A stretch of 20,563 nt of DNA from a virus (taxonomy: Duplodnaviria; Heunggongvirae; Uroviricota; Caudoviricetes). The position numbers and the translations under genes were made by a program. A model generated the notes under the pieces. The model made no database searches, was not told the DNA's origin, and worked only from the letters and a program-made list of their open reading frames with translations. The stretch is from positions 118,700 through 139,262 of IMG/VR virus record IMGVR_UViG_2974665086_000001. One strand, 5' to 3'. Positions within the stretch are counted from its first letter, which is position 1; every line of letters begins with the position of its first letter. Positions 7,866 through 10,781 of this stretch are shown here, piece after piece.

Positions 7866-8219
7866 ATGGGCGTTAAGATATTCGTAGATGATGAGCGTGC
7901 AGTACCGGACGTATCATGGACTTTAGTTAAGAATAGTCACACCGCCCTGATTATGCTTGATGGTCTAAGACAGCAGCATATTCAAATTGAATCTATAAGT
8001 CTTGATCATGACTTAGGTGCTCCGAGATTCCTAGATGAATACGACGATACACGTTGTATTGTTAACTGGATGATTATGGAGAATTATTGGCCTACTAACC
8101 TATATGTGCATACGAGTAACCAAGTTGCAGAAGATTGGTTAGTGGGTACAATAAGACGATACGGACCTAAGAATATACTTAAGGGTTACGGTCATAACTT
8201 TTGGAAGCACCAACGTTGA
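7866..8219 (+). CDS. Cyclic-phosphate-processing receiver (cREC)-like domain protein
   Basis: Motifs KIFVDDER, ISLDHDLG and VHTSN match this stand-alone receiver-like family by eye. Confidence 0.75.
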   Translation: MGVKIFVDDERAVPDVSWTLVKNSHTALIMLDGLRQQHIQIESISLDHDLGAPRFLDEYDDTRCIVNWMIMENYWPTNLYVHTSNQVAEDWLVGTIRRYGPKNILKGYGHNFWKHQR

Positions 8220-8377
8220 GCGATTTGTATGTAAGCAATGAACAGTTTAAATATGTTTTGTGCAGTGTGGCAGATCAGTTGTTGTCAATAGGAGTAGAAG
8301 TTATCCCGGTTACTGCACTGAAAGAAATATCACTTAACTTAGAGGTAATAGAAACGGTGGGAATGAACGATGATTAA
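8216..8377 (+). CDS. 53-aa hypothetical protein
   Basis: TTGA overlap with the upstream stop and 8-bp overlap with the macrodomain start; MSDLYVSNEQFKYVLCSVADQLLSIGVEVIPVTALKEISLNLEVIETVGMNDD. Confidence 0.55.
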   Translation: MSDLYVSNEQFKYVLCSVADQLLSIGVEVIPVTALKEISLNLEVIETVGMNDD

Positions 8378-8810
8378 GCACTTCGAGGGTGATTTGTTTA
8401 CCAGCGAGTCTGAGGCTATTGGTCATGGTGTGAACACGTGGGGTATTATGGGCGGTGGAATTGCCGTTGAATTTCGTAAGCGATACCCAGATATGTATGA
8501 GCACTATAATCATGTATGTAAAAACACAGACGATGCAGACTTAGTTGGTAAGGCATATATCTGGTACGATGAATCAGGTAAAGTTATTGCTAATTTGTTC
8601 AGCCAAGATAAGCCAGGGCCAAACGCCCGGTACAGTTGGACAATGCAGGCGATTAAGAAAACTTTAGATGAGCTAGAAGCCCAAGGTATTACCAGTCTTG
8701 CCATTCCTAAGATCGGTAGTGGTATTGGTGGACTCAAGTGGGCAGATATGTATTACTATCTGGTTGATGAGTTTAATGACCACCCGGTAGACTTACACCT
8801 TTACATTTAA
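8370..8810 (+). CDS. Macrodomain (ADP-ribose binding/processing) protein
   Basis: GDLF, HGVN..G.MGGGIA..FRKRYP, IANLFSQ and AIPKIGSGIGGLKW are hallmark macrodomain motifs. Confidence 0.92.
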   Translation: MIKHFEGDLFTSESEAIGHGVNTWGIMGGGIAVEFRKRYPDMYEHYNHVCKNTDDADLVGKAYIWYDESGKVIANLFSQDKPGPNARYSWTMQAIKKTLDELEAQGITSLAIPKIGSGIGGLKWADMYYYLVDEFNDHPVDLHLYI

Positions 8811-10197: not shown

Positions 10198-10255
10198 TGT
10201 TCATACAATTTGTTGTGACAAAACCGTTACATACATCACAAACTTGACACGTCGG

Positions 10256-10284
10256 TTGACATAGTATCTATCAAGTCGTAGTGT
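10256..10284 (+). promoter_or_regulatory. sigma70/SigA-type promoter
   Basis: TTGACA 10256-10261, 17 bp, TAGTGT 10279-10284. Confidence 0.7.
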
Positions 10285-10390
10285 CATACATACCAGGGGA
10301 TAAACCAGAAGATAGAAAGGAGTCTAATCCTCTTGCAGTCGGGAAGCACGATAGTAAAGTTAAACTCATTTCTATTCAAGGAGATAACCA

Positions 10391-10714
10391 ATGCAGACAT
10401 TCACGCACGATGAGGTAGCTACACTTAAGGCTGTGGCGACAGGTAATCTTAACGTTCTCGCTGAGCTAGGTGTACCCGAACAGGGTCGCGAGAAGCTGGA
10501 AGCAGTCGTACACAAGCTAGATAACTATTTTTCTCTTCCGGGGCGAGAAATCTCAGTTGATCTTAATCGACGTGGCGACAAGGTAGCGGTCACTGTTACT
10601 CACCTGCCTACACGGCTTAAGGTAACCGTTGAAGGCACCAGCGAATTGCAGTGCAAGGCGATTGCACTTAAGCAATTGGAGGCCAAGGTGTACAAACTGG
10701 ACAAGACCGGATAA
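10391..10714 (+). CDS. Class I release factor (RF-1 domain)-like protein lacking GGQ
   Basis: AVTVTHLPTRLKVTVEGTSELQCKAIALKQLEAKV aligns by eye with RF1/RF2 SAVRITH(L/I)PTGIV..Q.ERSQHKNK..A(L/M)KQ..AKL; the GGQ loop is missing. Confidence 0.65.
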   Translation: MQTFTHDEVATLKAVATGNLNVLAELGVPEQGREKLEAVVHKLDNYFSLPGREISVDLNRRGDKVAVTVTHLPTRLKVTVEGTSELQCKAIALKQLEAKVYKLDKTG

Positions 10715-10723
10715 CTTATCCGG
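10707..10723. promoter_or_regulatory. 17-bp palindrome, putative operator
   Basis: CCGGATAA-C-TTATCCGG; fully symmetric form of the start-associated motif. Confidence 0.5.
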
Positions 10724-10728
10724 CAGAG

Positions 10729-10762
10729 AAGCGGATTCTTCGGAGTCCGCTTTCTTTGTATT
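10729..10762 (+). terminator. Intrinsic terminator with C(UUCG)G tetraloop
   Basis: AAGCGGATTC-ttcg-GAGTCCGCTT then TCTTTGTATT. Confidence 0.85.
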
Positions 10763-10781
10763 GACAGGCAGGTAAACTTAA

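What the first reader, a model, noticed from the sequence alone, without database searches (positions are those of the whole stretch)
10391..10714. Phage release-factor-like protein with the catalytic GGQ loop deleted, in its own transcription unit
Seen: residues 49-100 (LPGREISVDLNRRG-DKVAVTVTHLPTRLKVTVEGTSELQCKAIALKQLEAKV) parallel RF1/RF2 domain 3 (INPADLRIDxxRxSGAGGQHVNxTxSAVRITHxPTGIV..SQHKNK..AMKQMKAKL), with the GAGGQHVN segment missing. The gene has its own promoter (10256), a palindrome at its stop (10707) and a UUCG terminator (10729). Established: GGQ is essential for peptidyl-tRNA hydrolysis. Inference: a catalytically dead mimic that could occupy ribosomes, decoy PrmC or a host sensor, or use the fold to bind RNA, i.e. 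a translation-takeover or anti-defence factor.
Basis: partly seen in the sequence, partly recalled or inferred. Interest (0 to 1): 0.75.

Follow-up and report, generated by a model that had tools for sequence, protein, structure and literature searches.

The report
Phage release-factor domain without catalytic loop
Rhodococcus phage Trina has a small, conserved early gene whose product copies the peptide-releasing domain of bacterial release factors but has the catalytic GGQ loop cut down to a two-residue turn, so it cannot release peptides and probably works as a non-catalytic binder whose target has not been tested.

Summary
Window 10391-10714 (+) encodes a 107-aa protein, listed as uncharacterized in Rhodococcus phage Trina.

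- **Homology:** Residues about 48-107 are homologous to release-factor domain 3 (RF-1 / GGQ domain). A four-member family profile hits T. thermophilus RF2 at E 4.7e-7. hhalign against GGQ-bearing RF-1 domains gives 97.7% probability (P 1.4e-12). The only gap is 9 columns, lying exactly over GAGGQHVNT.
- **Structure:** An AlphaFold model has RF1 as its best structural match (Z 9.8).
- **The gene is functional:** Four relatives at about 50% identity all lack GGQ. In near-identical wastewater strains, 11 of 12 variants are synonymous.
- **Transcription unit:** A promoter-like element, a strong ribosome-binding site and a terminator hairpin recur at the same positions in all four loci.
- **Architecture:** Residues 1-47 form an acidic helical hairpin with no detectable homology to anything.
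- **Function:** Untested. My best guess is a non-catalytic RNA or ribosome binder made early in infection.
- **Novelty:** GGQ loss is not unique. Representatives of Acinetobacter and Pseudomonas phage RF-1 domain proteins lost GGQ by substitution; this scan had already noted the Acinetobacter case on other DNA. mS35 and plant PrfB3 are inactive relatives. A Gemmatimonadales membrane-protein family ends in the same loop-less module.

I class this as a new variant of a known kind.

The parts
10256..10284 (+). Promoter-like element: -35 TTGACA (10256-10261), 17-nt spacer, -10 TAGTGT (10279-10284)
   Evidence: Read. The same -10 TAGTGT followed by CA(A/T)ACATA occurs upstream of the homologues in L001 and L003, and TTGACG-16-TATGGT occurs in L004. 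The generic sigma-70 scan did not call it. Function as a promoter is inferred.
10285..10390 (+). Leader of about 105 nt with Shine-Dalgarno AAGGAG at 10378-10383, 7 nt before the ATG
   Evidence: Read. Leaders of roughly 85-170 nt are present in all four loci. The transcription start is not mapped.
10391..10714 (+). CDS, 107 aa plus stop; UniProt A0A2D0ZNR7, 'Uncharacterized protein', Rhodococcus phage Trina
   Evidence: Single copy in the genome. 11 of 12 natural variants are synonymous.
10391..10531 (+). Residues 1-47: acidic helical hairpin (helices 6-26 and 30-44), pI about 5
   Evidence: Model; charge. No homology to RF domain 1 or anything else by hhalign. Only generic helical-hairpin structural matches.
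10532..10711 (+). Residues 48-107: basic core (pI about 9.6) of the release-factor peptidyl-hydrolase domain (strand-strand-strand-helix)
   Evidence: sequence. (structure: RF1 1zbt Z 9.8, rmsd 2.1, 62 residues aligned). (charge).
10568..10582 (+). Residues 60-64 (RRGDK): tight turn replacing the roughly 14-residue catalytic GGQ loop
   Evidence: 9-column gap over GAGGQHVNT. Strands 54-61 and 64-71 in the model. Matched RF chain ranges are 10 residues longer than the model ranges.
10707..10723 (.). Perfect 8+1+8 palindrome CCGGATAA-C-TTATCCGG spanning the TAA stop codon
   Evidence: I2. It also folds as a small hairpin. Its role is unknown.
10728..10763 (+). Intrinsic-terminator-like hairpin (10-11 bp stem, UUCG loop) with a T-rich tail
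   Evidence: -30 kcal/mol, z -5.9. Unrelated but equally strong hairpins follow the stop codon in L001, L003 and L004.

Best explanation
**What is shown.**
- The gene is a real, selected, probably early and monocistronic phage gene.
- Its product has two parts: an acidic N-terminal helical hairpin, and a basic C-terminal module that descends from the peptidyl-hydrolase (GGQ) domain of bacterial class-I release factors.
- In that module the catalytic loop between the first two strands has been shortened to a two-residue turn.

**What follows from established knowledge.** The GGQ loop is what reaches the peptidyl-transferase centre, and its backbone performs catalysis. The protein therefore cannot release peptides.

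**What is inferred.** It acts non-catalytically as a binder.
- The most likely partner is structured RNA: the large-subunit A-site region, a tRNA acceptor end, or another RNA.
- Binding would go through the basic sheet/helix face kept from the release-factor domain.
- The acidic hairpin would supply a second contact or a self-association surface.
- By this route it would modulate host or phage translation early in infection.
For: **Homology and loop deletion:**

**Fold:**
- The model has pLDDT 73 and secondary-structure order H-H-E-E-E-H.
- Foldseek top hits are RF2/RF1 (prob 1.0, rmsd 1.3-3.4 A, 22-32% identity).
- VIA-align gives RF1 Z 9.8, mtRF1 8.6, RF1 8.3, mtRF-R 7.8, PrfH 7.7.

**A functional gene:**
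- Four relatives at about 50% identity have the same length and architecture, and 21 columns are invariant.
- 11 of 12 variants in near-identical wastewater strains are synonymous, against 25% expected (p 2e-6).
- Promoter-like element, leader and terminator recur at the same positions in all four loci.

**Support for an RNA or ribosome partner:**
- The module is basic (pI 9.6).
- By my alignment to E. coli RF2, invariant K94 and K89 fall at about RF2 Lys289 and Lys284 on helix alpha7. The P-tRNA acceptor end points at alpha7 near Lys282 and Lys289 (PMC6742477).
- The two characterised inactive descendants of this domain both bind ribosome or RNA: mitoribosomal MRPS35 (PMC6514570) and plant PrfB3, which binds the petB 3' UTR (PMC5897788).
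- The core also resembles double-stranded-RNA-binding domains structurally (Z up to 8.2).
- The phage invests in translation, with 27 tRNA genes.
Against: - There is no direct evidence for any partner.
- The protein lacks the parts that give known RF-domain proteins their ribosome affinity. It has no codon-recognition domains 2/4, and only domain 3 matches. It has no ArfB-type basic C-terminal tail, and single substitutions in that tail strongly reduce ArfB ribosome binding (PMC3950681).
- Overall charge is near neutral (pI 7.9).
- The alpha-beta-beta-beta-alpha arrangement is common, so fold similarity carries little functional information (note).
- The model is of moderate confidence (pTM 0.49), and the packing of the two halves is uncertain.
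Confidence: 0.4

Rival explanations
1. Protein-binding decoy or adaptor. The release-factor-like core or the acidic hairpin binds a host protein that normally recognises release factors (PrmC methyltransferase, RF3, a rescue or defence component), or binds another phage protein. RNA is not involved.
For: - The N-terminal acidic helical hairpin looks like a protein-protein interaction element.
- Small early phage proteins commonly act as stoichiometric inhibitors of host proteins (general knowledge).
- RF1 domain 3 in the solved RF1-PrmC complex (2b3t) is among the Foldseek matches.
Against: - PrmC's substrate is the Gln of the GGQ loop, and that loop is deleted.
- No PADLOC defence model matches.
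- The gene has no conserved partner gene: its neighbours are unrelated small ORFs and it is monocistronic.
- The interaction could not be tested.
Confidence: 0.25
2. Non-catalytic blocker of the 50S A site. The domain docks where RF domain 3 or an aminoacyl-tRNA acceptor arm sits, and directly inhibits termination, ribosome rescue (ArfB, ArfA-RF2 type) or elongation on host ribosomes. This is the strong form of the first reader's ribosome-mimic idea.
For: - The module derives from a domain whose only known docking site is the 50S A site / PTC (PMC6742477).
- The most conserved residues (G62, S84-K89) lie, by strand topology, at the end of the sheet from which the GGQ loop emerges in release factors (inferred).
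Against: - The same points as for the main explanation: no anchoring domains or tail.
- A general A-site blocker would also hit phage translation.
- Without the loop, the contacts with A2602 and the PTC that hold domain 3 in place are lost (PMC6742477).
Confidence: 0.15
3. The resemblance is convergent or a chance match. The protein would be an unrelated small alpha/beta protein (dsRBD-like or HPF/RaiA-like), or a decaying gene remnant with no function.
For: - All Pfam RF-1 scores are below the gathering threshold.
- dsRBDs (Z 6.5-8.2) and hibernation factors (Z 6.4-6.7) also match the model.
- One member gives Ribosomal_S30AE at E 0.026.
- One relative (L003) is split by a frameshift.
Against: - hhalign Prob 97.7, P 1.4e-12, with motif-level agreement (V-T/R-V/I-T-H-x-P-T-G-L; S-x-x-Q-x-K-x-x-A-x-K-x-L) and a single gap at the GGQ loop.
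- Release factors head three independent libraries: PDB sequences, NCBIfam and the structure searches.
- Purifying selection and conserved expression signals argue against decay.
- The L003 contig has only 1.39x coverage, so its frameshift in a T-run may be an assembly error.
Confidence: 0.05

Closest known systems
Domain 3 (GGQ / peptidyl-tRNA hydrolase domain, Pfam PF00472 RF-1) of bacterial class-I release factors RF1/RF2
   Same: - Three-stranded sheet plus long helix.
- Shared motifs V-(R/T)-(I/V)-T-H-x-P-T-G and S-x-x-Q/N-K-x-x-A-x-x-x-L.
- No alpha-i insertion between strands 2 and 3.
- Best sequence and structure matches.
   Different: - The roughly 14-residue catalytic loop with GGQ is reduced to a two-residue turn.
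- There are no domains 1, 2 or 4.
- The helix stops about two thirds of the way along alpha7.
- An unrelated acidic helical hairpin is fused at the N-terminus.
- Scores are below Pfam's threshold.
Small phage-encoded RF-1 domain proteins (PHROG 20323 and relatives): Acinetobacter phage Lazarus gp245, Pseudomonas phage phiPsa300 gp006, Pseudomonas phage P8749 'release factor A'; mycobacteriophage Alice gp197, Nanosmite gp140, WXIN
   Same: - Stand-alone release-factor domain 3 encoded by a phage (378 phage records).
- The Acinetobacter and Pseudomonas representatives also lack GGQ: SGARRWVN, GGM and GASAW.
   Different: - Those proteins lost GGQ by substitution and keep a full-length loop. Here the loop is deleted.
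- The mycobacteriophage proteins keep GGQ and carry a C-terminal extension.
- None has the N-terminal hairpin.
- The Trina family profile scores higher against cellular RF1 and an ArfB-like protein (27-30 bits) than against any of these (10-16 bits). This suggests a separate origin.
- PHROG 20323 matches only at E 0.015.
Catalytically inactive release-factor-domain proteins of organelles: mitoribosomal MRPS35 (mS35) and plant plastid PrfB3
   Same: The release-factor peptidyl-hydrolase domain has lost the catalytic Gln or GGQ and was re-used non-catalytically: as a structural ribosomal protein, or as an mRNA 3'-UTR binder and stabiliser (PMC6514570, PMC5897788).
   Different: - These are eukaryotic organellar proteins.
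- MRPS35 derives from the ICT1/ArfB class with the alpha-i helix and has flanking helical domains.
- PrfB3 keeps the full RF2 multi-domain layout.
- The 2019 survey describes the widespread bacterial versions (RF1, RF2, ArfB, PrfH) as retaining the catalytic Gln. It does not mention phages (zero hits for 'phage').
ArfB (YaeJ) / ICT1 / mtRF-R stand-alone GGQ rescue factors
   Same: A stand-alone domain 3 without codon-reading domains. mtRF-R and PrfH appear among the structural matches (Z 7.8 and 7.7).
   Different: Those factors keep GGQ and depend on a basic C-terminal tail for ribosome binding (PMC3950681). The Trina protein has neither. It also lacks the alpha-i insertion of ArfB class 1 / ICT1.
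C-terminal module of a ~390-aa Gemmatimonadales polytopic membrane-protein family (L005, L006, P0011-P0031; all 'hypothetical protein')
   Same: The same loop-less version of the module. It aligns without a gap across the turn (L-P-x-E-x-x-V-D ... G-x-x-V-T-V-T-H-L-P). hhalign Prob 97, P 7e-11 against the phage family and Prob 86 against RF-1. The Atlas structure search also paired the two.
   Different: - It is fused to a multi-pass membrane protein in bacteria, not a free phage protein.
- The helix motif differs (no LQCK).
- The loci were found by a pattern containing VTVTHxP, so the pairwise statistic is somewhat inflated.

Membership tests
Pfam RF-1 (PF00472) / bacterial release-factor peptidyl-hydrolase domain | Profile match at or above the curated gathering score (35 bits) | tested here: not met
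   Scores were 13.3, 14.9, 21.4 and 15.2 bits for the four family members. The six-frame search of the genome gave no match at E<=0.001.
Pfam RF-1 (PF00472) / bacterial release-factor peptidyl-hydrolase domain | Remote homology by profile-profile or profile-sequence comparison | tested here: met
   hhalign Prob 97.7, P 1.4e-12. hmmsearch against PDB sequences gives RF2 at E 4.7e-7. NCBIfam prfA/prfB are the top hits for all four members.
Pfam RF-1 (PF00472) / bacterial release-factor peptidyl-hydrolase domain | Domain-3 fold (three-stranded sheet packed on a long helix) | tested here: met
   The predicted model gives RF1 1zbt Z 9.8, rmsd 2.1 A, 62 residues. mtRF1 scores 8.6 and RF1 8.3. Foldseek prob is 1.0 to RF2/RF1. 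This is a prediction, not a solved structure.
Pfam RF-1 (PF00472) / bacterial release-factor peptidyl-hydrolase domain | Catalytic Gly-Gly-Gln motif on a long loop between strands 1 and 2 | tested here: not met
   None of the four members has GGQ. There is a 9-column gap over GAGGQHVNT. The model has a two-residue turn there.
Class-I release factors RF1/RF2 (prfA/prfB) | Codon-recognition superdomain (PCRF, domains 2/4 with PxT/SPF) and N-terminal domain 1 | tested here: not met
   The protein has 107 aa. hhalign against full-length RF1/RF2 matches only domain 3, columns 216-280. NCBIfam scores are 15-20 bits against cut-offs of 370-423.
ArfB/YaeJ-ICT1 rescue factors | GGQ domain followed by a linker and a basic C-terminal helix needed for ribosome binding | tested here: not met
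   The protein ends within the domain-3 helix. It has no GGQ and no tail (alignment with the ArfB-like P0008). It has no alpha-i insertion.
PHROG 20323 (phage 'RF-1 domain peptide chain release factor') | Significant match to the PHROG profile | tested here: inconclusive
   E 0.015, 16.2 bits, residues 66-100 against profile positions 27-62 of 73.
Double-stranded RNA-binding domain (dsRBD) | alpha-beta-beta-beta-alpha fold plus a dsrm sequence profile | tested here: inconclusive
   Structural Z is 6.5-8.2 to Dicer, Staufen and ADAR dsRBDs. No dsrm hit appears in Pfam at E<=10 for any member.
Ribosome hibernation factor HPF/RaiA (Ribosomal_S30AE) | Match to PF02482 and the beta-alpha-beta-beta-beta-alpha fold | tested here: inconclusive
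   One member of four gives E 0.026, 15.7 bits against a 23.7-bit cut-off. Structural Z is 6.4-6.7. PDB-profile E values are 0.23-0.76.

The most novel reading that the evidence does not exclude
Loop-less and GGQ-substituted release-factor domains would form an unrecognised class of non-catalytic ribosome or tRNA-end binding modules. Phages of unrelated hosts (Rhodococcus, Acinetobacter, Pseudomonas) would have evolved them independently from the release-factor catalytic domain. Some bacteria would tether the same module to membrane proteins.

The Trina protein would dock its conserved G62 / S84-K89 tip at the 50S A-site entrance or at a peptidyl-tRNA acceptor end. There it would block host release or rescue factors, or protect phage translation complexes.
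Probability: 0.15. Interest if true: 0.8.

Novelty: new variant of a known kind. Interest (0 to 1): 0.55.

Why it matters
Release-factor catalytic domains are normally discussed only as peptidyl-tRNA hydrolases. This is a phage protein under clear purifying selection that keeps the scaffold and has precisely removed the catalytic loop. Substitution-type losses occur in other phages, and a membrane-tethered bacterial version exists. Together these suggest the scaffold has a second, non-catalytic use that has not been studied.

The protein is small and soluble-looking, and its phage has a cultivable host (R. erythropolis RIA 643). A ribosome or RNA binding test is therefore straightforward. Database labels such as 'peptide chain release factor' or 'peptidyl-tRNA hydrolase' on GGQ-less phage homologues are probably wrong.

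Tried and rejected
**Searches for relatives**
- tblastn of the protein against phage records at E<=10 gave only non-significant hits. Two of them were the domain 3 of full-length RF1/RF2 genes on unverified contigs.
- Scans of viral contigs and genome contigs with family patterns found no relatives.
- The exhaustive HMMER search found only two true relatives. Its hits P0004 and P0005 are repeat proteins and I judged them spurious.

**N-terminal hairpin as a remnant of RF2 domain 1**
- HMMER showed a colinear sub-alignment (residues 7-47 against RF2 61-103), but at only 2.7 bits.
- hhalign against full-length release factors found nothing there. I rejected the idea.

**Alternative folds**
- The HPF/RaiA and dsRBD readings rest on fold-level or marginal signals only.

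**Cys-His catalytic pair (invariant H71 and C88)**
- By strand topology the two residues lie at opposite ends of the sheet.
- I had no access to model coordinates, so I could not measure the distance. I consider the pair unlikely.

**Other checks**
- PADLOC gave no match.
- No RtcB, Pth or second RF-1 domain was found in the phage genome.
- For expression data, no RNA holder was listed among the public runs.
- Literature searches for phage GGQ-less release-factor domains found nothing specific.

Full report
**What is there**

The ORF at window 10391-10714 (+) encodes 107 aa. The window is the right-hand 20.5 kb (118700-139262) of a 139,262-bp virus record with direct terminal repeats.

The BFVD search returned the same protein at 100% identity as A0A2D0ZNR7, 'Uncharacterized protein [Rhodococcus phage Trina]'. 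Trina is a cluster CE phage of R. erythropolis RIA 643 with this exact genome length (bioRxiv 10.1101/2022.11.23.517428). That paper does not mention a release factor.

**Is the release-factor resemblance real?**

Single-sequence searches are weak but all point the same way:
- Pfam RF-1 at E 0.085, and PHROG 20323 ('RF-1 domain peptide chain release factor') at E 0.015.
- phmmer against PDB sequences puts T. thermophilus RF2 first (E 0.002), and most of the other matches are also release factors.
- NCBIfam prfA at E 2.9e-4.

An exhaustive HMMER search of 1.84 billion representatives, plus a word-index search, found only three diverged relatives. All come from metagenomes and are about 50% identical:
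- P0002, 112 aa.
- P0007, 114 aa.
- P0003 with P0006, a copy split by a one-base frameshift.

Each relative independently gives RF-1 as its best or second-best Pfam hit. Profile methods then give clear support:
- A three-sequence profile hits RF2 at E 4.7e-7 over positions 49-106 against RF2 223-290.
- hhalign of the four-member family against six GGQ-bearing RF-1 domains gives 97.7% probability (P 1.4e-12) over 62 columns.
- That alignment has a single gap of nine columns lying exactly over GAGGQHVNT.

None of the four members has GGQ.

**Structure**

An AlphaFold2 model built from the family alignment has mean pLDDT 73 and pTM 0.49. Its elements are helices 6-26 and 30-44, strands 54-61, 64-71 and 76-82, and helix 85-106.

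- Foldseek against the PDB is headed by RF2 and RF1 chains: probability 1.0, rmsd 1.3-3.4 A, 22-32% identity, E 0.01-0.1.
- An independent all-against-all aligner puts RF1 1zbt first (Z 9.8, rmsd 2.1 A, 62 residues). Next come mtRF1 (8.6), RF1 (8.3), mtRF-R (7.8) and PrfH (7.7).
- The matched RF ranges are ten residues longer than the model ranges, which is the missing loop.
- dsRBDs (Z up to 8.2) and hibernation factors (Z about 6.5) also appear. The arrangement is therefore a common one, and it is the sequence evidence that decides homology.
- There is no alpha-i insertion between strands 2 and 3. The module is thus of the RF1/RF2 / classical type, not the ArfB class 1 / ICT1 type.

In ArfB the GGQ loop is 15 residues between two strands (PMC3950681). 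In E. coli RF2 it is residues 245-258 (PMC6742477). In the Trina protein it is a G62-D63 turn.

**The N-terminal half**

Residues 1-47 are acidic (pI about 5), and residues 48-107 are basic (pI about 9.6). The same split is seen in the relatives.

hhalign against full-length RF1/RF2 matches only domain 3. A faint colinear HMMER alignment of the hairpin to RF2 domain 1 (2.7 bits) is not supported.

**Is it a working gene?**

- *Conservation:* There are 21 invariant columns, concentrated in V-T-V-x-H-x-P and S-x-L-Q-C-K-x-I-A-L-K-x-L-E.
- *Natural variation:* Contigs from four wastewater metagenome runs carry near-identical strains. Of 12 variant positions inside the CDS, 11 are synonymous against 25% expected (binomial p 2e-6). 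The one replacement (T83I) is at a position that varies across the family.
- *Copy number:* The gene is single-copy in the genome.

**Transcription unit**

- TTGACA (10256-10261), 17 nt, then TAGTGT (10279-10284) precedes a leader of about 105 nt. AAGGAG lies 7 nt before the ATG.
- The same TAGTGT with CA(A/T)ACATA stands upstream of the homologues in L001 and L003. TTGACG-16-TATGGT stands upstream in L004.
- The generic sigma-70 scan missed the site because TAGTGT matches TATAAT at only three positions. It does fit the actinobacterial TANNNT form (my own knowledge).
- Strong hairpins follow the stop codon in all four loci, with unrelated sequences (z -2.9 to -7.5). The Trina hairpin has a UUCG loop.
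- The palindrome CCGGATAA-C-TTATCCGG spans the stop codon.

A host-type promoter at the small-gene end of the genome suggests early expression. That is an inference, and no RNA data were available.

**Context**

- The neighbours are unrelated small ORFs. A cREC-macrodomain pair lies 1.5-3 kb upstream in the window, L001 and L004, and L003 has a Macro-domain gene in the same relative position. These genes sit in other transcription units.
- The phage has 27 tRNA genes and no tmRNA.
- It has no RtcB, no Pth and no second RF-1 domain.
- No PADLOC model matches.

**How unusual is it?**

A tblastn search with an RF1 domain 3 finds RF-1 domains in 378 phage records. I examined one representative of each of several groups:

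| Phage protein | State of GGQ |
|---|---|
| Mycobacteriophage Alice gp197, Nanosmite gp140, WXIN | GGQ kept |
| Acinetobacter phage Lazarus gp245 (78 aa, next to tRNA genes) | SGARRWVN |
| Pseudomonas phage phiPsa300 gp006 | GGM |
| Pseudomonas phage P8749 | GASAW |

- Loss of GGQ in phage RF-domain proteins is therefore recurrent. An earlier finding of this scan on other DNA (e1-1997298) had already noted the Acinetobacter case.
- The Trina family differs in two ways: the loop is deleted, not substituted, and it carries the N-terminal hairpin.
- Its profile scores higher against cellular RF1 and an ArfB-like protein (27-30 bits) than against the other phage proteins (10-16 bits). This suggests a separate origin.

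The 2019 survey of release-factor evolution describes the widespread bacterial versions as retaining the catalytic Gln. It names MRPS35 as an inactive organellar derivative (PMC6514570). Plant PrfB3 lost SPF and GGQ and binds the petB 3' UTR (PMC5897788). I found no paper on GGQ-less phage versions.

**A related bacterial module**

The metagenome scan turned up membrane proteins of about 390 aa (L005, L006). Their last 70 residues or so align to the phage module without a gap across the turn:
- hhalign Prob 97, P 7e-11 against the phage family.
- hhalign Prob 86 against RF-1 domains.

Twenty-odd cluster representatives exist, one of them labelled Gemmatimonadales. The Atlas structure search paired the phage protein with a 389-aa Gemmatimonadota cluster on its own. 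These loci were found through a pattern containing VTVTHxP, so the statistic is somewhat inflated.

**Mechanism**

*Shown:* homology, loop deletion, conservation, purifying selection and the bipartite charge.

*From established knowledge:* without the GGQ loop there is no release-factor-type hydrolysis.

*Inferred:* the protein is a non-catalytic binder. I favour an RNA or ribosome partner at about 0.4, for these reasons:
- Both characterised inactive descendants of the domain bind ribosome or RNA.
- The retained module is basic.
- The invariant K89 and K94 align at about RF2 Lys284 and Lys289 on helix alpha7, near where the P-tRNA acceptor end points (PMC6742477). This numbering comes from my own alignment and is approximate.

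Against this reading, the protein lacks every element known to anchor RF-domain proteins on the ribosome.

Three rivals remain: a protein-binding decoy (0.25), a direct A-site blocker as a stronger sub-case (0.15), and chance or convergence (0.05). A PrmC decoy seems unlikely because the substrate loop is gone.

**Verdict**

This is a new variant of a known kind, and I score interest at 0.55.

Noticed in passing
L003:5861-6186: In one relative the gene is split into a 47-aa N-terminal ORF and a 61-aa C-terminal ORF (TTG start overlapping the TGA stop). One T appears to be missing from a T-run, and the reading frames otherwise continue the family alignment. The contig has 1.39x coverage, so this may be an assembly error and not a real split.
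   Followed up: partly
L005:976-2166 and L006:2032-3207 (metagenome contigs); P0011-P0031: A family of ~390-aa polytopic membrane proteins has no Pfam match, and one member is labelled Gemmatimonadales. Each ends in a ~70-residue module that resembles a release-factor domain 3 with the same short turn in place of the GGQ loop.
   Followed up: partly
L011:1004-1240 (Acinetobacter phage Lazarus), L012:589-981 (Pseudomonas phage phiPsa300), L013:583-1077 (Pseudomonas phage P8749): These proteins are annotated 'RF-1 domain peptide chain release factor', 'peptidyl-tRNA hydrolase' or 'release factor 1/A'. Their GGQ is replaced by ARR, GGM and ASA respectively, so the annotations probably overstate their function.
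   Followed up: partly
window 10707-10723: A perfect 17-nt palindrome CCGGATAA-C-TTATCCGG overlaps the stop codon, immediately before the terminator hairpin. It could be a protein-binding site or simply an extra stem.
   Followed up: partly
window 10235-10240; L001, L003, L004 upstream regions (alignment A5): ATCACA is invariant upstream of the promoter-like element in all four loci. All four leaders are long (about 85-170 nt). This may be chance in a gapped alignment of short sequences.
   Followed up: no
G000:C1:80546-107110 (outside the window): ARAGORN finds 27 tRNA genes and no tmRNA in the phage genome.
   Followed up: no
window 10391-10711 (model m01a6605800cd): Small bacterial DUF6898 proteins (PF21839, 65-80 aa) match residues 47-107 structurally at 22-28% identity. 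No sequence-profile hit was seen. They may be another short relative of this fold.
   Followed up: no
window 7866-8810; L001:2667-4097; L004:2991-4699: A cREC-like gene and a macrodomain gene lie 1.5-3 kb upstream of the RF-like gene in the window, L001 and L004. L003 has a Macro-domain gene in the same relative position. These genes are in separate transcription units.
   Followed up: no
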